Source: an uncultured Candidatus Saccharibacteria bacterium
Lineage (GTDB): Bacteria > Patescibacteriota > Dojkabacteria > GCA-002793355
Assembly: GCA_964525295.1 (NCBI GenBank)
Contig: CAZGEO010000001.1
Coordinates: forward strand, 572,314-636,313
Length of the DNA stretch: 64,000 nt
Reading direction: 5' to 3'
Both the position numbers and the translations under genes were made by a program. Each line of letters starts with the position of its first letter. Position 1 is the stretch's first letter. This document shows, piece after piece, positions 26,148-37,338 of the stretch. The notes beneath the pieces are model-generated. The model was given only the letters and a program-made list of their open reading frames with translations. It was not told the DNA's origin and did no database searches.

Positions 26148-26569
26148 GGGGGTGACCGGCTTAGACGGTTGTTCATTGAAAGAAGTAGCCAAGCGGGCTG
26201 ATATCCCGTAAATCTATCAAAGCACCATAAAGTGCCAAGTCAAACCTTTCTGAGAAAGTCGCAGCTTTTTTGAACTCAGCAGTTAAGGCTTTTGCCTCAG
26301 TTGTTGCAGCTCCAAAGCTTGCAGTCTCACTCGTCTCTTAATGACGTAACTGGTTTCTCCTCCTTTGCATAACAAGCGGGAAACCAGGAGTAATAAGGTT
26401 TATGCCGACACGCTATCAAGCTCCGCTGGGGTAGAGTGTTGTACATGTGCGGGCGAGTATTCCTTTTTTGCTCGATTTTCAGGGGATACTTAGTACTCAA
26501 CTCGAGCTGTCTTGGGAGAGACTTCTTTTTAAGAAGAGCTGCACAGGGGTTCGATTCCCCTCACCTCCA
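26148..26569 (+). ncRNA. ssrA: tmRNA (transfer-messenger RNA)
   Basis: 5' GGGGGUGA pairs with 3' UCACCUCC to give a 7-bp acceptor stem with a G3:U wobble (tRNA-Ala identity), followed by a discriminator A. T-arm AGGGGUUCGAUUCCCCU. 5' GGCUUAGACGG resembles the GGAUUCGACGG box. Internal frame ...AAAGUC GCA GCU... is followed by UAAUGA stops and a CUGGUUUC/GAAACCAG helix. Confidence 0.65.
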
Positions 26570-27325
26570 TTTTTTCAACACTCTCGTTCGCTACAAAAAA
26601 GAAACCAGTTCTTTTTTGTTACGCTCACGATCCGTGTAGAAGAAAATGGAGCGAACGGGAGGGGTGAAAAATAGGAAAATGTTGGGGAAGCGAAACGCAA
26701 GCGAGAATGTACTGACGTACATTCGAACGAAGCGGGGGTCGAGGAGCGGAAAATTTTCTAGCGAAGCGACGGAAATGACCGCGAGGTGACCGATTCCCCT
26801 GACTTTTGAAAACGCTTCGAAAGAGTTTTTTATGACGTCGGCGACCATTACCCATTCGGGCAAAAAGAGGCTTTTCAAAACGATAATGTTCGATGCTATC
26901 GCCTGAAAGTATAACCTTATCGTTTACTGTGAATGGTAAAGAATCTTCTTGTGTTGCACTACTATCAAGCGAAGTAGTGCAGTCAGAAGCGCGAGCGCGT
27001 AGGGGCTCGCGCTCTTCTTCCTGCAAGCCATGAGAAACAATCGACTGTCTCTTTCCTTTTATTCTTGAGGAATTTGAGTCACTCGAAATTTTGCCCATAA
27101 GTAGTGTGCCTACACGAGTAGATCCAATGGATCATTTCTAATGTAGGGTGCCTAACCTTGAAGGCGGCTACTTACGGTCTGACAGTTCTTTTGAACAGCG
27201 TGATCTTTTTGTTAACTTGTTTTCTCTGGCATCATCACTCCTACCAGCAGAAGGCGCATTCGGCCTTGGGCCTTTATATATTACCCTGTTAAATTGTAAG
27301 CGATAAAATAATTTAGAATAGAGTA

Positions 27326-28399
27326 CTACACCCCAGTCATAACCTTGAATTTATAACGTGGTCTTAGCGGAGTAATGAAACTCCATTGAACGTGGTCTTC
27401 TTTTGCCAATCTTCCTGCAACTATTGAATGTGCTATTTGAATTTTATTCGCGAATTCTTTGATCGAAGCCAATGAGAAGATTCCTGATTGAATAAACTGT
27501 TCGTACATATCAGAGGGTATTAGTGTGTTTTTCGCAAATTCGTTGGCTTCTAATTCATGGGTTTGAGTATCATCCTGACTGATTTCATCAATAAAGTTTT
27601 TATTTTTGTCATGAATTATCAAGTGGCCCAACTCGTGAAAGAGTGTGAACCAGAATATATCTTCAGTGCAGTTACGCAATGATAAAATAATTACTGGTGT
27701 CTCATTTTGTATCCAAATCAATGCACCGTTAACAGGGGATCTCGGAATATTCGGCAACCCAATTAAAACTACACCCGCCTTTTTTAGAATTTCTTTTACT
27801 TGTTTATAGACTACTGTGATAGGCTGCTGTGATAGTTTTTTTATCTCATCGAGAGAGCGAGTTAACAAGGTTTTGTTGTATCTGTATTCTGGTAATGATT
27901 TGAGTGCAGCAATTTCTCCCTGTCTTAACCAAGCTTGCGTTTCAGGGATTGAAGCCTTAAGTTTATCTGCAATTCTGAATTCGATTGCTACATCCCTATC
28001 TATTACTGTTTTAAGTGAATTAACTGCGAAGAAATTCAGTAGGTTCCTAACTTTGGTTACTTGATTAATAGTTTTCTCTACCCAACCAAAGTTTGCCATA
28101 TCTTTATAAAAGGAAAAATGAGGAAGATATTTCTTTTCATCTAAAACATGGTTAAGGTCTTCTTCAATAGCAAGCGCGTGCTGATAATTGCTCTCAAGAT
28201 TAATCCAAAAGTCGGATGAGATTTCGAATATTCTAGATAGACGTATTGCAGTCTCGGGAGTAATAGATGCTTTCTCATTAATAATCATGTTCAGTTGCTT
28301 TCTGCTCAGACCAATACGTGCAGCGAGTTCAACCTGTGATAATCCATAAGCTATCATCGTTTCTTCAAGGATTGTCCCTGGATGTGTGATGTTGTTCAT
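27326..28399 (-). CDS. HigA-type HTH antitoxin fused to ImmA/IrrE (COG2856, DUF955) Zn-metallopeptidase domain
   Basis: N-terminal HPGTILEE...GLSQVELAARIGLSRKQLNMIINEKASITPETAIRLSRIFEISSDFWINLESNY matches the HigA/VapI HTH. C-terminal HEXXH (FHELGHLIIHD) in a DUF955 context. Confidence 0.7.
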   Translation of the reverse strand: MNNITHPGTILEETMIAYGLSQVELAARIGLSRKQLNMIINEKASITPETAIRLSRIFEISSDFWINLESNYQHALAIEEDLNHVLDEKKYLPHFSFYKDMANFGWVEKTINQVTKVRNLLNFFAVNSLKTVIDRDVAIEFRIADKLKASIPETQAWLRQGEIAALKSLPEYRYNKTLLTRSLDEIKKLSQQPITVVYKQVKEILKKAGVVLIGLPNIPRSPVNGALIWIQNETPVIILSLRNCTEDIFWFTLFHELGHLIIHDKNKNFIDEISQDDTQTHELEANEFAKNTLIPSDMYEQFIQSGIFSLASIKEFANKIQIAHSIVAGRLAKEDHVQWSFITPLRPRYKFKVMTGV

Positions 28400-28752
28400 C
28401 AGTGGTAGTTTATGTCTAAGTTAGTAATCATTACAGAGGTAATTTCTTCTGGCTGATCAGAAATCGGAGTGCCATCATCATTGTAAGGAGTGATGATCAT
28501 TCGAAACGGCTCAATCGTTGTAAGCGCGTATGATCCCTGATCTTTCCCGATTAGCGGATGAAAGTTTAATTGTTTTAATCCGTAAAGGTCTTTTAAATTT
28601 TTTGCTGCGCAGAGTTCTGCGTGCCTTATCAAAAGAACCTTTCCCTTACGGTCGCCAAACTCCGCTTTAGCTTTGCCTAGTTTTTTCTCCATTTTGTTAT
28701 TGGAAAAGAAGACTTTCATTAATATTCTATACTGTATCTTATCCGTTGTCAA
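28399..28752 (-). CDS. HigB-like (RelE/ParE superfamily) toxin
   Basis: C-terminal FHPLIGKDQGSYALTT...ITNLDINYH parallels HigB LHPLKGDREGYWSI...ILNYEDYH. Toxin-first order with 1-nt overlap onto the antitoxin. Confidence 0.6.
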   Translation of the reverse strand: MTTDKIQYRILMKVFFSNNKMEKKLGKAKAEFGDRKGKVLLIRHAELCAAKNLKDLYGLKQLNFHPLIGKDQGSYALTTIEPFRMIITPYNDDGTPISDQPEEITSVMITNLDINYH

Positions 28753-28832
28753 TAAAATTGTAACCTGTTAGGTTACAGTATTCTACGCTTTTGCACAAAA
28801 CATTACAAGTACAAAAGAAATGAGTTACAATA

Positions 28833-30392: not shown

Positions 30393-30771
30393 TAGCGAAA
30401 TTATCGAATCAATATTTATTAAAAGTTGGTTCGACATCCATCCCCTCAGGTCCATTTTTCAAATTTCTCTTGCTCACTACCGCTGAAACATTCGTTTCAT
30501 CGGGATACGCTCGCAATCCGAAATTTGAGAAAATGCAGGAGACAGCAAGAGGAATTTGAAAAAGTGAAGAATGCTGGGGAATCGAAACTTGAGAAAAACG
30601 TGAACGATTTCACGTTTGACGAGAGCGAGGCTACGCCTAACAACCTTTGAAAATACAATGTGCAATTTTAGTGGCGGGCCAGCAAGGTGATGTTTGAGAA
30701 AAATTCCCGAAAGTAAGTTGGCAAGGCCAAAAATTGGTGGGTGTTCGATTTTCTTTACCCCACTCCCAGTA

Positions 30772-32271: not shown

Positions 32272-32296
32272 ATTGATAATTAACAATTAATTTCAC
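32272..32296. repeat. 25-nt element ATTGATAATTAACAATTAATTTCAC abutting a stop codon (identical copy at 53051..53075)
   Basis: Exact 25/25 identity between two unrelated gene 3' ends; member of a wider AT-rich AATTGAAAATT / TTAATAATTAA motif family. Confidence 0.6.
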
Positions 32297-32871
32297 CTCC
32301 TCTTCTCCGTTGCCAAATTCTTGGCCCAGTCATTAACCTTGGTGTGGTAAACGGTAAGGGCGAGTTTTTTACCATATTCCGTCAAATACGTTTGGTTAAT
32401 CCAATCCTCATTATTTTCGAGCCATTCTTTCGCTTGTTGGTTGTTGTAAGTGAAAACTTGCTCTTGCAACAATATCATCTGAGCCATTCTATCGGCATCT
32501 TTAACACATTTTGCCTCTAACGATTCACGTTTCCCATACTCTTCAAGTAGCGTCTTGATATTTAGGTGATCTAATTCTTCTGGGAACATTTCAGCAATTG
32601 CCTCCTCTTCGTATGCTTTGACGTATCTTTTGTTAATCCAGGCAATATCACCTGTCCTGGTTTCTGCCGTGTCGTGCGACATTGCCATTAAAAGAACCTT
32701 TTCGATATTTGCGCCCTCGTGCTTTGCAATAATGTAAGCAATCCAGGTTACTAAGTAAGAATGAGTCGCAAGATTGTCGCTTAGGTCGTCGAGTAATAAA
32801 ACAGGGCGGTGGTTTCGAACTATCTTTCGCATTGTTGAAAGTTCAAACAAGAGGTTTGCTTCTTTTTTCAT
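32293..32871 (-). CDS. HD-domain 5'-deoxynucleotidase (YfbR-like)
   Basis: HSYLV...H...MSHDTAETRTGDI...DADR pattern of YfbR-type HD phosphohydrolases. Confidence 0.65.
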   Translation of the reverse strand: MKKEANLLFELSTMRKIVRNHRPVLLLDDLSDNLATHSYLVTWIAYIIAKHEGANIEKVLLMAMSHDTAETRTGDIAWINKRYVKAYEEEAIAEMFPEELDHLNIKTLLEEYGKRESLEAKCVKDADRMAQMILLQEQVFTYNNQQAKEWLENNEDWINQTYLTEYGKKLALTVYHTKVNDWAKNLATEKRR

Positions 32872-32908
32872 AGTTGCTGATTATATAACGTTACTCAATT
32901 GGTGCCCA

Positions 32909-33466
32909 TTATACTTCTAGCAATTTCTTTACCGGTGGGTATACATTCGAGGTGAAAAGTTTTAATGCCTGCTTTTTTGTCACCCATCTTACTTCGACAT
33001 TCTCTTCGTCATCGGCAAGATATGGTTCACCGTGAAGATAATCACATAACCAATATGAAATAATTGCCTTAGTGTCTGGATGAATACGCTTTCCAATGGA
33101 TTTAACGGCCTTGCAATGAACACCAGTTTCTTCTAAACATTCAATTTCTGCACGAGTAGAGGAGCGTTCTTTGTATTTGATCCTTCCTGCGGGGAATTGC
33201 CAAGATAGTGAACCTTCTCGGACTCTTCGATGGAGAACGAGAACTTTATCGTTGTGCATAATAATTGCTACGGCAATTTTTAGTGGCTGCGTGCTTTCGG
33301 TTGATTTGTTAAGGTATTCGGTTAAGGCAGCGTGAGTGACAAGAAAATTCTTGCCTATTCTTATGGTCTTCAGTTCCCCTTTCGATATCTTTGAGAGTAT
33401 GGTGCGGTAGTTGAGATTTAACGCCGATGCTACTTGTTTTGGGGTATAAATTTCCGCTTTCTGCAT
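32909..33466 (-). CDS. Excisionase/MerR-type HTH / NUDIX hydrolase fusion protein
   Basis: N-terminal HTH_17-like (YTPKQVASALNLNYRTILSKISKGELKTIRIGKNFLVTHAALTEYL). Nudix box GRIKYKERSSTRAEIECLEETGV, with REx2EE degenerated to IEx2EE. Confidence 0.65.
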   Translation of the reverse strand: MQKAEIYTPKQVASALNLNYRTILSKISKGELKTIRIGKNFLVTHAALTEYLNKSTESTQPLKIAVAIIMHNDKVLVLHRRVREGSLSWQFPAGRIKYKERSSTRAEIECLEETGVHCKAVKSIGKRIHPDTKAIISYWLCDYLHGEPYLADDEENVEVRWVTKKQALKLFTSNVYPPVKKLLEV

Positions 33467-33544
33467 ATACCATTATATCACGGAGTGTATTTTAGTGTAT
33501 ATAGGTGATGTGTTATTTGTGGTCAGACATTGCTATAATCCTTC

Positions 33545-34096
33545 ATGAACAAATACTGGTATTTCGATATAATTCATAAATATATAAAACCCGGCACACA
33601 GGTGTATCCTTTTTATATAATTCACGTGAATTTAGTAACTGCAAAGGCATTGGCGATAGCGCAGAAATTGAATTTATCTGCAGAAAGTCTACAGTTTATT
33701 GAAGAGGCCTCAATGCTGCACGACATCGGTATTTGTGGAGTAGAAGATGAAGATTTTGGCACAACTGGCGGTCCATACATAACGCACGGAATTCTAGGCT
33801 CTGAAATTCTTCGGAAAGAAGGGTATCCTAAACATGCAAAAGTCGCAGAAAATCATACCGGGGTAGGTCTGTATAAAGATCAAATAGTAGAGAGAAATTT
33901 ACCTCTTCCACATAAAGATTTTGTACCCGAAAATTTGGAAGAAAGAATAATAAGCTATGCAGATCTTTTTTATTCGAAAGTGACTGAAATCCTTTGGCAA
34001 GAGCAATCTTTTGAAAAGATTCGTGCTGGAGTTGGCAAGTACGGACAGAAATATAGCGACATCCTAGAAGCGTGGATTAAAGAGTTCGAGTCATAA
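33545..34096 (+). CDS. HD-domain phosphohydrolase
   Basis: H...HD (ASMLHDIG) ...H...D spacing of the HD superfamily. Confidence 0.6.
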   Translation: MNKYWYFDIIHKYIKPGTQVYPFYIIHVNLVTAKALAIAQKLNLSAESLQFIEEASMLHDIGICGVEDEDFGTTGGPYITHGILGSEILRKEGYPKHAKVAENHTGVGLYKDQIVERNLPLPHKDFVPENLEERIISYADLFYSKVTEILWQEQSFEKIRAGVGKYGQKYSDILEAWIKEFES

Positions 34097-34119
34097 TTCT
34101 CTTAGTATTACAATCTTTT

Positions 34120-34596
34120 ATGATCACCATGCGAATAGCAAATATATCGGATATTCCGGCGGTGCAGAAATTGCATGCCGAACTCTTTACGTATGAAGAT
34201 GCGTTTTTGAAATTGTATAACAATAACTATGACGAATCGGCAGCGAGCACAAAATATTTCAAAAGCAGAATAAATCCAGAAAATGGGCGGATATTTCTTG
34301 CTGAAGAAGGCGGTAAAGTCGTTGGTTATTTGTGTGCAGGCAAAGGCGTAGAAGAGTACCGAGAGGTGCCGAGATATGCAGAAATCGAAAGTTTGTTCGT
34401 TGTGGAAAATTGTAGAGGCCAAAACGTCGGTAAATTGCTAATAAATGCCTTTAAGGAGTGGGCAAGAGCAGAAGGAATAAATCGCCTAAAAGTTGAAGTC
34501 GTGCACTCGAATGTTCGTTCATTGGCTTTTTACCAAAGGGAAGGTTTTTTACCAACATATTTGGAGCTCGAATCAATTGAAATTACGAGCCAGTAA
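34120..34596 (+). CDS. GNAT family N-acetyltransferase
   Basis: Acetyl-CoA motif A NCRGQNVGKLLINAF. Confidence 0.75.
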   Translation: MITMRIANISDIPAVQKLHAELFTYEDAFLKLYNNNYDESAASTKYFKSRINPENGRIFLAEEGGKVVGYLCAGKGVEEYREVPRYAEIESLFVVENCRGQNVGKLLINAFKEWARAEGINRLKVEVVHSNVRSLAFYQREGFLPTYLELESIEITSQ

Positions 34597-34620
34597 TTAA
34601 AAATCAATGCAAGTATCTTG

Positions 34621-35427
34621 TTACCAAACATCACCCTGTTTGTATATTTTCTGATGAACCTTTTTTGCAGGATCATATATCCAATAACCCTCACGGTTAT
34701 CTTTGTTGAATAGGTCCATTTGAATTCCCATTTCTTTGCAGTATTCCTCGTTGTCGGTACATCCAAATGGTCTGTGGTTGATGTTGTAAAGCAAAATTTC
34801 ATTTTGTGACGATGATCCGGGGAGTATCGCTGAAAGTGATATTTCGGTAATTGTTGATTTCCCCGATGAGATTGTTTCTAAATTATCAATGTTGGGGAAG
34901 TTGGCCTTATAGACATTGCCTAGTTCTTTGTCGAAAAGAACTATCTCGTGTTGAGTTTTCCCCTGCTTCTGATAAGTTAAGATTGCATAAGCAATATCGT
35001 CGATTTTCACATCGATCTTTTCGATTACTCTAATGACGCGCTCCTTAAAATTGATTGTGCAGGGTTTATCATTGTTATTGTAATTAGTAATTGAAATTTC
35101 GAATTTTTGTTCGGAATTGTTGCTTAGGAGATAATTCTGCTCTGAAGTTGAAAATGTATAGCGAGAAGTATCCATATTAGATTGATTGTAAAATTCCGAA
35201 ACAATTGCTTCTGAGCATCGTGGATTTTCTTGTGACGCCGAAGTAGTTATACTTGGAATTAAGGTGGGATTTGTTGAAGTCTTTTGCGAATAGTCGAATG
35301 CGGTGCGACCCGCAATATTGTTATTTACAAACACTGCGGCCATTACTATGAAAATAATGATTAAAACAAATTCAACGAGCGCAATGCTTGTTGCATTGCT
35401 TGAGAGAAATTTCTTAATTTGATTCAT
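34621..35427 (-). CDS. Hypothetical membrane-anchored protein
   Basis: N-terminal TM (IALVEFVLIIIFIVMAAVFV), then a soluble Cys-containing domain. The N-terminus is only weakly pilin-like. Confidence 0.4.
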   Translation of the reverse strand: MNQIKKFLSSNATSIALVEFVLIIIFIVMAAVFVNNNIAGRTAFDYSQKTSTNPTLIPSITTSASQENPRCSEAIVSEFYNQSNMDTSRYTFSTSEQNYLLSNNSEQKFEISITNYNNNDKPCTINFKERVIRVIEKIDVKIDDIAYAILTYQKQGKTQHEIVLFDKELGNVYKANFPNIDNLETISSGKSTITEISLSAILPGSSSQNEILLYNINHRPFGCTDNEEYCKEMGIQMDLFNKDNREGYWIYDPAKKVHQKIYKQGDVW

Positions 35428-35466
35428 TGGTCATTATACGTTTTTTCAAGAAGAAAGTAACGTATT

Positions 35467-35976
35467 ATGGAGAAATTTTGGTATTACTATTATAATTGCT
35501 TCATGACACTAACAATTCGCCGCGCATCGGCCTCAGATATTCCGTCGCTTAGGCAGCTTGGTTATGAGCTTCAAGAAAATGAGCGATTATTGTGTCCTGA
35601 CCGTGCTCCGGCAGCGGAAATTGTCGATCAATACAATGCAATCACGCAGAGAGTGGTAGCGTCGGGAGAATGGGTAATTTTTGTCGCGCTTGATGGCGAC
35701 CAATTCGTTGGATATACCGCAGGTGCAATGAATGACCCCGAAGATGATTTGATTAATTTGGCACCAGGATTCCATGTTGACGATATAGTCGTTGCCAAAT
35801 CGCATCGTGGGCAGGGAATTGGTCGTCAGTTGCTTGATGCAATAGGTGAATATGCGAAAGAGCAAGGTGCGAAAAGTATCGAACTAAATGTGTTATCGGC
35901 GAATGTTGAGGCTCAAGCCTTTTACCGAAAGGTGGGCTTTCAAGATTATGAGTTGGTACTGAAGAAGAAGCTGTAG
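35467..35976 (+). CDS. GNAT family N-acetyltransferase
   Basis: VAKSHRGQGIGRQLL motif A. Alternative start at 35503 (MTLTIRR) is possible. Confidence 0.7.
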   Translation: MEKFWYYYYNCFMTLTIRRASASDIPSLRQLGYELQENERLLCPDRAPAAEIVDQYNAITQRVVASGEWVIFVALDGDQFVGYTAGAMNDPEDDLINLAPGFHVDDIVVAKSHRGQGIGRQLLDAIGEYAKEQGAKSIELNVLSANVEAQAFYRKVGFQDYELVLKKKL

Positions 35977-36015
35977 AAGAGTATAAAATTTGTAGTAAAT
36001 CTTCCAATTTTTCGA

Positions 36016-36615
36016 TTATTTGCCAGGCATTCTCTGATATTTTGAGCCAGCAAAGGTTATTCCTTTGCCTGTTACTTTAAAAAGCTCCCGGTCATTATCT
36101 CCATCGCCAATACAGTAGATATCAGTAATTTGTGTGTTGTTTTTCTCGCAATAATCTGTTAGTTGCATTACCTTTGCATTGTAATCATTTGCTACGGTTT
36201 TTATGTCACTAAGGTAATCATTTTCATCAAAAACAAAGTGGTTGTTGGCATACCAGTTTGAGATGCCAAGATCCTTAGCAACGTGTTCAACTAACAAATC
36301 CATAGAGCCACTAATCAAAAGTAGTTTGTGACCACGTGACAGCAATTGACTAATCACTTTTTGAGCCCCTTCAAGGTAGGTGTAGTTAAATAAGGTTTGT
36401 AGGATTGTTTGCTTTGTGTGTCTTCCGGAACTTTTATAAATTCTCAATATAATTTGTTGACCAGCTGCATCACTGATAATACCGCGCTTTCCCCAATCCA
36501 TTAGTATATTATCTTCCTGTTCTGTGACGCCAAGAGCAAGATTAAGATTAAGCCAGGCATTTTCTTTGATAAGTGTTTTGTTGAGGTCAAAGCAGATTGT
36601 CTTTGGAGCGTTCAT
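36016..36615 (-). CDS. HAD-superfamily hydrolase (subfamily IB-like phosphatase)
   Basis: Motif I variant CFDLNKTL near the N-terminus, motif IV GDGDND near the C-terminus. Confidence 0.6.
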   Translation of the reverse strand: MNAPKTICFDLNKTLIKENAWLNLNLALGVTEQEDNILMDWGKRGIISDAAGQQIILRIYKSSGRHTKQTILQTLFNYTYLEGAQKVISQLLSRGHKLLLISGSMDLLVEHVAKDLGISNWYANNHFVFDENDYLSDIKTVANDYNAKVMQLTDYCEKNNTQITDIYCIGDGDNDRELFKVTGKGITFAGSKYQRMPGK

Positions 36616-36627
36616 GAGTATATTATA

Positions 36628-37338
36628 CTAGTACTCCAGTTTCTCTTCATCAGGCTCAGTAATGTATGGCGTAAAAGCTGTAGGATTCGCAAGAAATTCT
36701 TTGATATGTGGCAAGCCTGTTTCAAATCCTTTTCTAAAAATTTTATCGAGTTCAAAGATTTTGTCGATATCGTGCCAAAAGTATTCACCTTCAATATTTT
36801 GTGAATTTGGCGAACCTTCCCATTTTGTTACAAATATGACAAAAAATACTCCATCACCGACTATTTCGCCGGTTTCATTTCTGATGATCTCACGATGAAT
36901 TCCTGCTACTTTGAATTCTGTTGGCACAATAGCTAGTTCTTCTTGTAATTCTCTTCGCATGTTATGTTCTAGTGATTCGCCCCATTTAAGCTTGCCAGTA
37001 ACGGCGCCAATGTAATCATAATGTGGATGCTTTTTTCTTCTGAACAGTAACATTTGCCAATTGCCCTCGTGATATCGCAATAAATCGATAAACATGCTGA
37101 CTTTGAACTGTTTTTGATACTGTCCATCTTCTTCCATCAGCGACACTTGTTGCCTACCTTCTGAAGAAAGTGAGTAGGAGCTGCCATTTTTTAAGATGAG
37201 CCCTTTCGCCACTAATTCTCTTAAATGATAATTGAATAAATCATGATTTCCGCTAGCTTTGTGTAATTCGCCATAGGTTAAACTCGGTGAAAACATAAGT
37301 TTGTTGAGTATTATTTTCCTTGTTTCTGCTTCTGTCAT
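36628..37338 (-). CDS. Winged-HTH / NUDIX hydrolase fusion protein (paralog of 8369..9085)
   Basis: LFNYHLRELVAKGLILK wHTH and Nudix box GKLKWGESLEHNMRRELQEELAI. Same architecture and length as the other copy, though the sequence has diverged. Confidence 0.7.
   Translation of the reverse strand: MTEAETRKIILNKLMFSPSLTYGELHKASGNHDLFNYHLRELVAKGLILKNGSSYSLSSEGRQQVSLMEEDGQYQKQFKVSMFIDLLRYHEGNWQMLLFRRKKHPHYDYIGAVTGKLKWGESLEHNMRRELQEELAIVPTEFKVAGIHREIIRNETGEIVGDGVFFVIFVTKWEGSPNSQNIEGEYFWHDIDKIFELDKIFRKGFETGLPHIKEFLANPTAFTPYITEPDEEKLEY

What the first reader, a model, noticed from the sequence alone, without database searches (positions are those of the whole stretch)
27326..28752. HigB-like toxin with a HigA-HTH/ImmA-IrrE metallopeptidase fusion as partner
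HigB and HigA are the toxin and antitoxin of a type II toxin-antitoxin (TA) pair. A HigB-family toxin (C-terminal ...HPLIGKDQGSYALTT...NLDINYH) overlaps by 1 nt a 357-aa protein. That protein's N-terminus is a textbook HigA/VapI HTH. Its C-terminus is a COG2856/DUF955 Zn-peptidase with HEXXH (HELGH). In ImmR/ImmA and IrrE/DdrO systems the peptidase cleaves an HTH repressor on a stress signal. Here the HTH antitoxin and the protease are one polypeptide next to a ribosome-dependent mRNase toxin. This suggests a signal-triggered self-inactivating antitoxin, a possible stress or phage-sensing switch. It lies just downstream of ssrA, a classic island insertion site.
Basis: partly seen in the sequence, partly recalled or inferred. 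Interest (0 to 1): 0.6.

Follow-up and report, generated by a model that had tools for sequence, protein, structure and literature searches.

The report
HigB toxin with HigA–peptidase fusion partner
This is a real, intact two-gene toxin–antitoxin-type cassette: a HigB-like RNase plus a DNA-binding HigA domain fused to an ImmA/IrrE zinc peptidase. The gene pair is already known, widespread across bacteria, and related to the tested E. coli anti-phage system PD-λ-2, so it is a new member of a known kind, not a new system.

Summary
Two minus-strand ORFs overlap by 1 nt.

**Large protein (357 aa).** It passes the curated cut-offs for HigA antitoxin (TIGR02607) and Peptidase_M78. Its HExxH motif and a downstream Glu are invariant in 84/84 relatives.

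**Small protein.** It has no direct Pfam hit. It is still a divergent HigB: 44/60 relatives hit PF05015, and the AlphaFold model (pLDDT 95.6) best matches P. vulgaris HigB. It keeps four of five catalytic residues (Asp90→Asn).

**Pair conservation.** The pair is conserved in 77/80 species genomes across many phyla, and occurs on plasmids and phages. A conserved operator, TAACC-N5-GGTTA, lies upstream in 31/77 genomes and in the window.

**Prior knowledge.** The architecture was described in 2009 (Makarova et al.). A three-gene relative, PD-λ-2, was tested in 2022; there the fusion was the toxic partner. The window's fusion matches PD-Lambda-2_B (E = 4e-39), but no PD-λ-2 C gene is present.

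**Not shown.** The self-cleaving-switch mechanism remains unproven. The tmRNA neighbour is real, but an ssrA island is not demonstrated.

Verdict: new member of a known kind; modest interest.

The parts
28399..28719 (-). HigB-like gene (106 aa from ATG 28719). Alternative starts are TTG 28752 (117 aa) and ATG 28692 (97 aa, as called in the public record).
   Evidence: Relatives align from residue 1 of the 106-aa form. 44/60 relatives hit PF05015. The family profile hits HigB PDB chains at E~1e-7. AF2 pLDDT is 95.6. Foldseek's top hits are P. vulgaris HigB, prob 1.0, TM 0.74-0.79. H54, R73, Y105 and H106 are kept, with N104 in place of Asp90.
27326..28399 (-). HigA-HTH / M78 metallopeptidase fusion gene (357 aa), overlapping the HigB-like stop codon by 1 nt.
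   Evidence: TIGR02607 71.4 bits (cut-off 47.7), Peptidase_M78 53.6 bits (cut-off 22), HTH_3 46.2 bits. PADLOC PD-Lambda-2_B 133 bits, E 3.9e-39, residues 14-336. AF2 pLDDT 87.8.
28181..28399 (-). HigA-type HTH DNA-binding domain (residues 1-73).
   Evidence: TIGR02607 covers residues 1-73. PDB profile hits VapI 3trb (E 4e-19) and HigA 4mcx/6f8s. Foldseek finds P. aeruginosa HigA 6lb3/7csw at TM ~0.8 and 37 % identity.
27479..27709 (-). M78 (ImmA/IrrE) peptidase core (residues 231-307). The HExxH motif (H255-E256-L-G-H259) is at 27623..27637.
   Evidence: Pfam PF06114. H255, E256, H259 and E282 are present in 84/84 family members. Fold matches to PprI 8sln, CapP 7t5t and IrrE 3dti.
28759..28777 (-). 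Candidate operator: perfect 8-3-8 palindrome TGTAACCT-AAC-AGGTTACA, containing the family motif TAACC-N5-GGTTA.
   Evidence: Both arms are identical in relative L088 while the centre and the neighbouring spacer diverged. The exact motif is present within 150 nt upstream in 31/77 genomes, against a background of 2 per 545 kb. The half-site TTAAC is shared with the experimentally defined PaHigA operator (PMC6987408).
28724..28752 (-). Promoter-like site P1: TTGACA-17-TAGAAT (11/12). The -10 ends 4 nt before ATG 28719, which implies a leaderless or very short leader.
   Evidence: Both hexamers are conserved in L088 while the 17-nt spacer differs. This is a consensus match only; no transcript data.
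28780..28808 (-). Promoter-like site P2: TTGTAA-17-TAGAAT (9/12), directly upstream of the palindrome.
   Evidence: L088 has TTGTAT-17-TAGAAT at the equivalent position (read from the output).
27140..27325 (-). Conserved non-coding 3' block of the cassette.
   Evidence: 80-86 % identical to L088, which is higher than the coding regions. No frame is open in both sequences and there is no synonymous excess. RNA folding z = 0.11, with only 2 compensatory pairs. Function unknown.
26625..27098 (-). Lineage-specific third ORF (157 aa; conserved core about 26826..27008). Its membership of the system is uncertain.
   Evidence: 61 aa at 54 % identity to the equivalently placed 145-aa ORF of L088, E 7e-17. 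Coding-type substitution pattern: 14 synonymous changes and 0 stops in this frame. Absent from the other 80 loci. No Pfam, PADLOC or database relatives.

Best explanation
The locus is a compact, self-contained, autoregulated two-gene higB/higA-type cassette of about 1.65 kb, spanning window 28785-27142.

Shown or strongly supported:
- The first gene encodes a divergent HigB-fold protein that keeps the ribosome-dependent RNase active-site residues.
- The second gene is translationally coupled through a 1-nt overlap. It encodes a HigA-type HTH joined by a helical region to a catalytically intact ImmA/IrrE (M78) zinc peptidase.
- The pair is inherited and moved as a unit across bacterial phyla, plasmids and phages.
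- A family-wide palindrome, TAACC-N5-GGTTA, sits at the promoter.

Inferred:
- A dimer of the fusion protein binds that palindrome and represses the operon, and its HigA domain holds HigB inactive.
- The peptidase domain is switched on by an infection or DNA-damage cue, by analogy with ssDNA-activated IrrE/PprI and CapP.
- The active peptidase cuts the fusion protein itself, or a neighbouring copy in the complex, between the HTH and the peptidase.
- That cut derepresses the operon and frees HigB, which cleaves A-site mRNA and stops translation. This would be an abortive-infection or stress switch.

The locus is a two-gene relative of the three-gene E. coli defence system PD-λ-2.
For: Identity of the parts: HigA, M78, PD-Lambda-2_B; HigB family and fold. 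Active sites under selection: HigB H54 in 80/81, R73 in 76/81, C-terminal His in 63/63 aligned; fusion HExxH+E282 in 84/84. Residue roles come from PMC5027501. Purifying selection on both genes. Pair conserved in 77/80 genomes, mostly with overlapping genes. Discrete cassette with different flanks in a relative. Operator. Defence or mobile context for the family: 10 type I methyltransferase and 7 specificity-subunit neighbours among 119 flanking proteins, a ubiquitin-like Bub system next door, a prophage lysis-module position, 57 plasmids and 4 phages. Precedent: PD-λ-2 gives abortive-infection defence; RosmerTA ImmA-protease antitoxins; M78 peptidases cleaving HTH repressors.
Against: No experiment exists for this lineage. 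In PD-λ-2 the fusion protein alone was toxic and the HigB-like protein rescued it, and a third gene was required for defence. Here there is no PD-λ-2C homologue. The window's small protein carries Asn at the Asp90 position; D90A lowers HigB cleavage 77-fold, although 9 relatives also have Asn. None of 60 relatives hits the PADLOC PD-Lambda-2_A model. The fusion has no GAF-like sensor domain, so what would activate the peptidase is unknown. Self-cleavage is pure inference. The window's own neighbours are housekeeping-type genes, not a defence island.
Confidence: 0.55

Rival explanations
1. Reversed roles, as reported for PD-λ-2. The HTH-peptidase fusion is the growth-inhibiting effector, either through proteolysis of a host target or through mis-regulation by its HTH. 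The HigB-like protein is its inhibitor or regulator.
For: This is the direct experimental result for the closest characterised relative (PMC9519451). The window's fusion matches PD-Lambda-2_B over nearly its full length (133 bits). The peptidase active site is invariant in 84/84 relatives. The window's HigB-like protein has Asn at the Asp90 position.
Against: The HigB catalytic His54, Arg73 and C-terminal His are almost invariant in the partner family. That is hard to explain if the protein were only an inhibitor. The N-terminal domain is a bona fide HigA by sequence and fold. The PD-λ-2 toxicity was seen on over-expression. The PD-λ-2 A model does not recognise this partner family, so the two A proteins may not be equivalent.
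Confidence: 0.2
2. An ordinary addiction or stabilisation HigBA module. The peptidase domain is not the trigger. It acts on something else, such as a phage or host protein or another repressor, or it merely serves as a dimerisation or stability domain.
For: NCBI annotates the family simply as 'HigA family addiction module antitoxin'. It occurs on 57 plasmids, many non-mobilisable. Canonical higBA gene order and an operator are present. Makarova et al. also considered cleavage of a separate Xre repressor.
Against: The invariant HExxH+Glu across phyla argues for a required catalytic activity. The domain is strictly co-inherited with HigB. The family recurs inside R-M and other defence operons.
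Confidence: 0.15
3. A fused ImmR/ImmA-type immunity repressor and anti-repressor of an ssrA-integrated mobile element, with the small ORF incidental.
For: A tmRNA lies 754 nt away. A weak tmRNA-3'-like repeat occurs at 30427-30465. ImmA/ImmR is the founding example of this peptidase family.
Against: No integrase or other element genes lie nearby. The repeat is not above chance. The relative L088 carries the same cassette in different flanks with no tmRNA detected. The small ORF is conserved in 77/80 genomes.
Confidence: 0.05
4. An inactive relic: the cassette is decaying in a reduced genome.
For: Asp90→Asn in the HigB-like protein. There is no direct Pfam hit. The adjacent third ORF evolves fast.
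Against: Both ORFs are intact and under purifying selection (47/15 and 163/68 synonymous/non-synonymous). The promoter hexamers and operator arms are conserved. All the other catalytic residues are intact.
Confidence: 0.05

Closest known systems
PD-λ-2 (E. coli ECOR42; Vassallo et al. 2022, PMC9519451)
   Same: A HigB-like gene sits directly upstream of a HigA-like Xre HTH fused to a C-terminal ImmA/IrrE peptidase. The window's fusion matches the PADLOC PD-Lambda-2_B profile over residues 14-336 (133 bits).
   Different: PD-λ-2 has a third gene (C, 'related to a P4 phage antitoxin') that is required for defence. No homologue is present here or conserved in 80 related loci. The PD-Lambda-2_A model does not detect this partner family. 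The profile indicates that PD-λ-2B has about 55 extra N-terminal positions.
Canonical HigBA (P. vulgaris Rts1 HigBA; P. aeruginosa HigBA; P. putida GraTA)
   Same: Toxin-first gene order and overlapping genes. HigB fold with the His54/Arg73/Tyr91/His92 equivalents. HigA HTH fold (TM ~0.8). A palindromic operator with a TTAAC half-site at the promoter.
   Different: The antitoxin carries an extra ~260 aa: a helical region plus an M78 peptidase. The HigB-like protein has a ~15-aa insertion before the last strand and Asn for Asp90. The operator half-sites are spaced differently (TAACC-N5-GGTTA against TTAAC·GTTAA).
Xre-COG2856 fusion + RelE/PIN operons (Makarova, Wolf & Koonin 2009, PMC2701414)
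   Same: This is exactly the predicted class: a COG2856 Zn-peptidase fused to an Xre HTH, in an operon with a RelE-superfamily toxin. The same LexA-like or ImmA-like cleavage hypothesis was proposed.
   Different: It was a computational prediction only. This work adds the HigB-specific assignment, the catalytic-residue conservation, the operator motif and the 77/80 linkage figure.
RosmerTA (RmrT/RmrA; Millman 2022; Ernits 2023, PMC10440598)
   Same: The antitoxin is an ImmA-type peptidase, often with an N-terminal HTH, paired with a toxin, and has validated anti-phage activity. The window's fusion hits many RmrA models (best E 9e-16).
   Different: The hits are partial (peptidase region only) and much weaker than the PD-Lambda-2_B hit. 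RmrT toxins are unrelated (for example, membrane-depolarising), and only 1/60 partner relatives hits an RmrT model marginally (E 0.008).
IrrE/PprI–DdrO, CapP–CapH and ImmA–ImmR
   Same: M78 peptidase fold with HExxH (Foldseek hits 8sln, 7t5t, 3dti). The functional logic is a peptidase that inactivates an Xre-type HTH repressor on a stress signal.
   Different: In those systems the peptidase and repressor are separate proteins, the peptidase has a GAF-like sensor domain, and the output is transcription of other genes. Here they form one polypeptide without that domain, and the controlled partner is an RNase toxin.

Membership tests
HigB toxin (Pfam PF05015, RelE/ParE superfamily) | Direct profile match of the protein itself to PF05015 | tested here: not met
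   No Pfam or NCBIfam hit at E<=1. There is only PHROG 3066 'toxin of TA system' at E 3.6e-4.
HigB toxin (Pfam PF05015, RelE/ParE superfamily) | Family-level (transitive or profile) homology to HigB | tested here: met
   44/60 relatives hit PF05015, best E 9.4e-9. The profile of the family hits HigB chains 6f8s, 4mct, 5ixl and 4px8 at E 6e-8 to 2e-7.
HigB toxin (Pfam PF05015, RelE/ParE superfamily) | HigB/RelE microbial-RNase fold | tested here: met
   AF2 pLDDT 95.6. The top Foldseek PDB hits are all P. vulgaris HigB, prob 1.00, TM 0.74-0.79.
HigB toxin (Pfam PF05015, RelE/ParE superfamily) | Catalytic residues His54, Arg73, Asp90, Tyr91, His92 (PMC5027501) | tested here: inconclusive
   H54, R73, Y105 and H106 are present, and Asp90 is replaced by Asn104. 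In the family, H54 is present in 80/81, R73 in 76/81, D in 52 against N in 9, and the terminal H in 63/63 aligned.
HigB toxin (Pfam PF05015, RelE/ParE superfamily) | Ribosome-dependent A-site mRNA cleavage and growth arrest | not testable with these tools
   Needs expression and cleavage assays.
HigA antitoxin (NCBIfam TIGR02607) | Profile score above the curated cut-off, and the HigA HTH fold | tested here: met
   71.4 bits against a cut-off of 47.7. PDB profile hits to VapI and HigA. Foldseek TM ~0.8 to PaHigA and PvHigA.
HigA antitoxin (NCBIfam TIGR02607) | Palindromic operator in its own promoter (autoregulation) | tested here: met
   The sequence element is present and conserved: TAACC-N5-GGTTA in 31/77 genomes against ~0.05 expected, and in the window. 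Binding itself was not tested.
HigA antitoxin (NCBIfam TIGR02607) | Binds and neutralises the cognate HigB | not testable with these tools
   No complex-prediction tool was available, and PD-λ-2 data suggest the roles may differ.
M78 / ImmA-IrrE metallopeptidase (PF06114, COG2856) | Profile match above the gathering score, HExxH plus a downstream Glu ligand | tested here: met
   53.6 bits against a cut-off of 22. H255, E256, H259 and E282 are present in 84/84 relatives.
M78 / ImmA-IrrE metallopeptidase (PF06114, COG2856) | C-terminal GAF-like sensor domain, as in IrrE/PprI and CapP | tested here: not met
   The model after the HExxH motif is all short helices to residue 345. Fold matches to 8sln, 7t5t and 3dti cover only 163-175 columns with TM ~0.35.
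M78 / ImmA-IrrE metallopeptidase (PF06114, COG2856) | Signal-dependent cleavage of an Xre-type HTH repressor | not testable with these tools
   Requires biochemistry.
PD-λ-2 defence system | Component B (HigA-HTH + peptidase) | tested here: met
   PDLC03982 PD-Lambda-2_B, E 3.9e-39, 133 bits, residues 14-336 against profile positions 67-378 of 402.
PD-λ-2 defence system | Component A recognised by the PD-Lambda-2_A model | tested here: not met
   No PADLOC hit for the window's protein, and 0/60 relatives hit that model. The protein is HigB-like by other evidence.
PD-λ-2 defence system | Component C (P4-antitoxin-like, required for defence) | tested here: not met
   There is no conserved downstream gene in 80 loci. 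The window's downstream ORF and those of relatives have no PADLOC hit.
PD-λ-2 defence system | Protection against phage by abortive infection | not testable with these tools
   Requires phage challenge.
RosmerTA | RmrA antitoxin plus an RmrT toxin | tested here: inconclusive
   RmrA models give partial hits (best E 9.3e-16, residues ~180-300). There is no RmrT hit for the window's protein, and 1/60 relatives hits at E 0.008.

The most novel reading that the evidence does not exclude
The two-gene HigB + HigA-M78 form, without the PD-λ-2 C gene, is the ancestral and autonomous version of this system. It would be a single-polypeptide sensor, repressor, antitoxin and protease that cleaves itself on a phage or DNA-damage cue and so releases an active HigB RNase. 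It would operate even in an ultra-small (~0.66 Mb contig) genome and recognise a universal TAACC-N5-GGTTA operator. That would give a LexA-like self-cleaving antitoxin and would resolve the puzzling reversed toxicity reported for PD-λ-2.
Probability: 0.3. Interest if true: 0.55.

Novelty: new member of a known kind. Interest (0 to 1): 0.3.

Why it matters
The gene pair is not new, but its mechanism is an open question. It was predicted in 2009, shown to defend E. coli against phage in 2022 with unexpectedly reversed toxicity, and has had no follow-up in the literature searched here. This analysis supplies testable handles. The two-gene core is the common form (77/80 genomes). Both catalytic centres are under selection. 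A phylum-spanning operator motif, TAACC-N5-GGTTA, exists. Culturable hosts such as Enterococcus, Clostridium perfringens, Nostoc and Sporomusa carry close equivalents. For annotating this window, the locus should simply be labelled a HigB-like / HigA–ImmA-IrrE peptidase TA-type (PD-λ-2-like) module.

Tried and rejected
- **Single-sequence searches for the small protein.** Pfam, NCBIfam, PADLOC and PDB phmmer gave nothing, and the word-indexed homologue search found only 2 near-identical proteins. The exhaustive search was needed.
- **Single-protein scan of genome contigs.** It found no relative; the alignment-based scan was needed.
- **ARAGORN.** It found no tmRNA, but Rfam did.
- **attR hypothesis.** The tmRNA-3'-like repeats at ~30427-30465(+) and ~30546-30577(-) score 28-29, but 2/20 shuffles reach that score. 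Rejected as evidence for an island.
- **Structured-RNA hypothesis for the conserved 3' block 27140-27325.** No Rfam hit, folding z = 0.11, and only 2 compensatory pairs from 2 sequences. Not supported.
- **Third ORF as a PD-λ-2C analogue.** No PADLOC or Pfam hit, no database relatives, and absent from the other 80 loci. Rejected as a general component.
- **Reaching a genuine PD-λ-2 locus in E. coli through the Pantoea plasmid homologue.** This led instead to a different Xre-peptidase locus, paired with a convergent hypothetical gene and a thymidylate-synthase gene and with no HigB-like gene annotated. A direct A/C comparison was therefore not possible.
- **The listing of cluster members.** The CPR/Patescibacteria guess rests only on the 659-kb contig size and a DUF4012 neighbour, and is not established.
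Full report
**1. What is there**

On the minus strand, ORF 28399..28752 (117 aa from TTG) and ORF 27326..28399 (357 aa) are present as described. The stop TGA of the first and the ATG of the second share one base. An exhaustive HMMER search found 86 remote relatives of the small protein. They are 105-113 aa long and align from residue 1 of the 106-aa form. The real start is therefore most probably ATG 28719 (MKVFFSNNK…).

**2. The large protein**

It passes the curated cut-offs for the HigA antitoxin equivalog TIGR02607 (71.4 bits against 47.7; residues 1-73), for HTH_3, and for Peptidase_M78 (53.6 bits against 22; residues 231-307). A profile of 29 relatives hits the solved VapI and HigA structures.

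The AlphaFold model (pLDDT 87.8) matches P. aeruginosa and P. vulgaris HigA at its N-terminus (TM ~0.8). Its C-terminus matches PprI/IrrE and CapP, but only over the peptidase core. There is no GAF-like sensor domain.

H255, E256, H259 and E282 are present in 84/84 family members. A WLRxGE motif in the middle region is also nearly invariant.

**3. The small protein**

On its own it hits nothing in Pfam, NCBIfam, PADLOC or PDB. At family level the assignment is solid:
- 44 of 60 relatives hit PF05015 HigB-like_toxin.
- The family profile hits the HigB crystal structures at E ~1e-7.
- The AlphaFold model (pLDDT 95.6) has P. vulgaris HigB as all of its best Foldseek matches (probability 1.00, TM 0.74-0.79). 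YoeB, RelE and YafQ rank lower.

The HigB catalytic residues are His54, Arg73, Asp90, Tyr91 and His92 (PMC5027501). They correspond to H54, R73, N104, Y105 and H106 here. Across 81 partner ORFs, H54 occurs in 80, R73 in 76, and the C-terminal His in all 63 that align. The Asp position is D in 52 and N in 9. The fold and most of the active site are thus retained. The Asp→Asn change leaves the activity of this particular copy uncertain.

**4. Is the pair conserved?**

The fusion protein has at least 407 clusters at E<1e-10, all about 355-370 aa. NCBI already names them 'HigA family addiction module antitoxin' or 'ImmA/IrrE family metallo-endopeptidase'.

In 77 of the 80 loci fetched, and in 3 of 3 further lineages looked up individually, an ORF matching the HigB-like profile lies immediately upstream on the same strand. 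It usually overlaps the fusion gene by 1-23 nt.

**5. A discrete, regulated cassette**

The nearest relative (81-86 % amino-acid identity, contig L088) shares only window 28785→27142 at 75 % nucleotide identity, and its flanks differ. Between the two copies, both genes show purifying selection: 47 synonymous to 15 non-synonymous changes, and 163 to 68.

Upstream lie two promoter-like sites: TTGACA-17-TAGAAT (11/12) and TTGTAA-17-TAGAAT. They bracket a perfect palindrome, TGTAACCT-AAC-AGGTTACA. In L088 the hexamers and both palindrome arms are conserved while the spacers have diverged.

Across the family, upstream palindromes with arms of at least 7 nt occur in 49/80 loci, against 9 % of shuffles. 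The exact motif TAACC-N5-GGTTA, always with a 5-nt spacer, occurs within 150 nt upstream in 31/77 genomes. The background is 2 occurrences in 545 kb. The window carries it 56 nt before the ATG. The half-site TTAAC is the one bound by P. aeruginosa HigA (PMC6987408). This is good comparative evidence for autoregulation by the HigA domain, although binding itself was not tested.

**6. Relation to known systems**

The best PADLOC match of the fusion is PD-Lambda-2_B (E 3.9e-39, 133 bits, nearly full length). Matches to RosmerTA RmrA (about 1e-15) and CapP (6e-14) are much weaker.

Vassallo et al. 2022 describe PD-λ-2 as a HigB-like gene, a HigA-like HTH fused to a peptidase, and a third P4-antitoxin-like gene. 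Unexpectedly, B alone was toxic, A rescued it, and C was required for defence against λvir.

Makarova et al. 2009 had already reported Xre-COG2856 fusions in operons with RelE and PIN toxins, and proposed a LexA/ImmA-like proteolytic switch. Ernits et al. 2023 restate this idea for the ImmA-protease antitoxins of RosmerTA. No mechanistic follow-up of PD-λ-2 was found.

The window has no C homologue. No downstream gene is conserved among the 80 loci. The downstream ORFs have no PADLOC hit. The PD-Lambda-2_A model recognises none of 60 partner relatives. The locus is therefore a two-gene relative of PD-λ-2, not a member in the strict three-gene sense.

**7. Context**

Family-wide, the pair recurs inside defence or mobile settings:
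- It sits between type I R-M genes: 10 methyltransferases and 7 specificity subunits among 119 immediate neighbours.
- It sits next to a ubiquitin-like Bub system.
- It sits at the lysis-module end of an Enterococcus prophage.
- It occurs full-length on 57 plasmids and 4 phages.

The window's own neighbours are TPR, HD, NUDIX, GNAT and HAD genes. There is no integrase and no recognisable defence system.

The tmRNA (26148..26572, +) is real by Rfam, but an ssrA-targeted island is not demonstrated. The only tmRNA-3'-like repeats are not above chance, and the relative carries the cassette without a detectable tmRNA.

**8. Mechanism**

Shown or strongly supported: a translationally coupled, autoregulated higB–higA(M78) operon in which both enzymes' active sites are under selection.

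Inferred: the HigA domain represses the operon and neutralises HigB, and a cue activates the M78 domain. By analogy with IrrE/PprI and CapP, that cue may be ssDNA or DNA damage. The active peptidase cleaves the fusion protein, which derepresses the operon and releases HigB to cut ribosome-bound mRNA.

The main rival is the PD-λ-2-type reversal, in which the fusion is the toxic effector and the HigB-like protein restrains it. The near-invariance of the HigB catalytic residues argues against a purely inhibitory role, but only experiments can decide.

**9. Verdict**

The proposed mechanism is a long-standing, still unproven hypothesis, not a new idea. The architecture is widespread, already annotated, and has a tested relative. 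Classification: new member of a known kind, with modest interest (0.3). What this analysis adds is the operator motif, the finding that the two-gene form is the common one, and the catalytic-residue conservation in both partners.

Noticed in passing
window 26148-26572 (+): A tmRNA was detected by Rfam (78.3 bits, full model) but missed by ARAGORN. It carries an insertion of about 72 nt relative to the model, just after the tag-coding region.
   Followed up: partly
window 26625-27098 (-); L088 3728-4165: A third co-directional ORF lies downstream of the pair in this sub-lineage only. It has a 61-aa conserved core (EPLRAR…TTSLDS…TQED…DKVI..GD.IEHYR..KPL; 54 % identity, E 7e-17) with a coding-type substitution pattern. 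Its termini are unconserved and rich in basic residues, Pro and Ser, and it has no relatives in any library. It could be a fast-evolving accessory gene or a decaying remnant.
   Followed up: yes
window 27140-27325 (-): The 190 nt immediately after the fusion gene's stop are 80-86 % identical to the relative, which is more conserved than the coding sequence (75 %). The block is non-coding and has no significant RNA-folding signal. Its function is unknown; it may be a 3' UTR, a terminator or a recombination site.
   Followed up: yes
window 30414-30464 and ~30546-30590; L088 268-308 and 1199-1235: A ~41-nt intergenic element is 93 % and 85 % identical to two copies in the relative's contig, so it is better conserved than the genes. 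In the window it forms a long inverted repeat with a partner about 100 nt away. It weakly resembles the tmRNA 3' end, but not significantly. It may be a short repeated or mobile element, or a recombination site.
   Followed up: partly
window 26988-27013 (+): A GC-rich perfect hairpin (AGCGCGAGC…GCTCGCGCT) lies inside the third ORF's conserved core and is flagged as terminator-like on the + strand. It would sit about 420 nt downstream of the tmRNA.
   Followed up: no
window 28717-28729 (-): The -10 hexamer of the best promoter match ends only 4 nt before ATG 28719, and the same geometry holds in the relative. This implies a leaderless mRNA, or that the upstream promoter P2 is the real one. No Shine-Dalgarno sequence is evident.
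   Followed up: partly
L007, L036, L047, L054, L067, L077 (and others): In several unrelated genomes the HigB/HigA-M78 pair is inserted between hsdM and hsdS/hsdR of type I restriction-modification operons. In L011, L013, L074 and L082 it precedes other methyltransferases, and in L013, L074 and L079 it follows an SNF2-type helicase.
   Followed up: partly
L002 4139-6022: In another small-genome MAG (protein P0012) the pair is followed directly by Multi_ubiq, ThiF/E1-like and BubE genes, which form a ubiquitin-like (Bub-type) conjugation module.
   Followed up: no
L086 (Pantoea plasmid) and L091 (E. coli PCN033 chromosome; 235 E. coli genomes): A different Xre-HTH/M78 fusion clade (360 aa) is paired with a convergent ~315-aa hypothetical gene and a thymidylate-synthase-like gene. 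In E. coli it lies next to a MazG-like gene and IS remnants. No HigB-like gene is annotated. It may be a distinct nucleotide-modification or defence module.
   Followed up: no
window 32293-37338: There is a run of small 'house-cleaning'-type genes: two HD-domain proteins, two NUDIX proteins (one with an N-terminal HTH_17 and one with DUF7347), two GNAT acetyltransferases and a HAD hydrolase. The HTH-NUDIX protein hits the PADLOC candidate PDC-S07 at E 4e-12.
   Followed up: no
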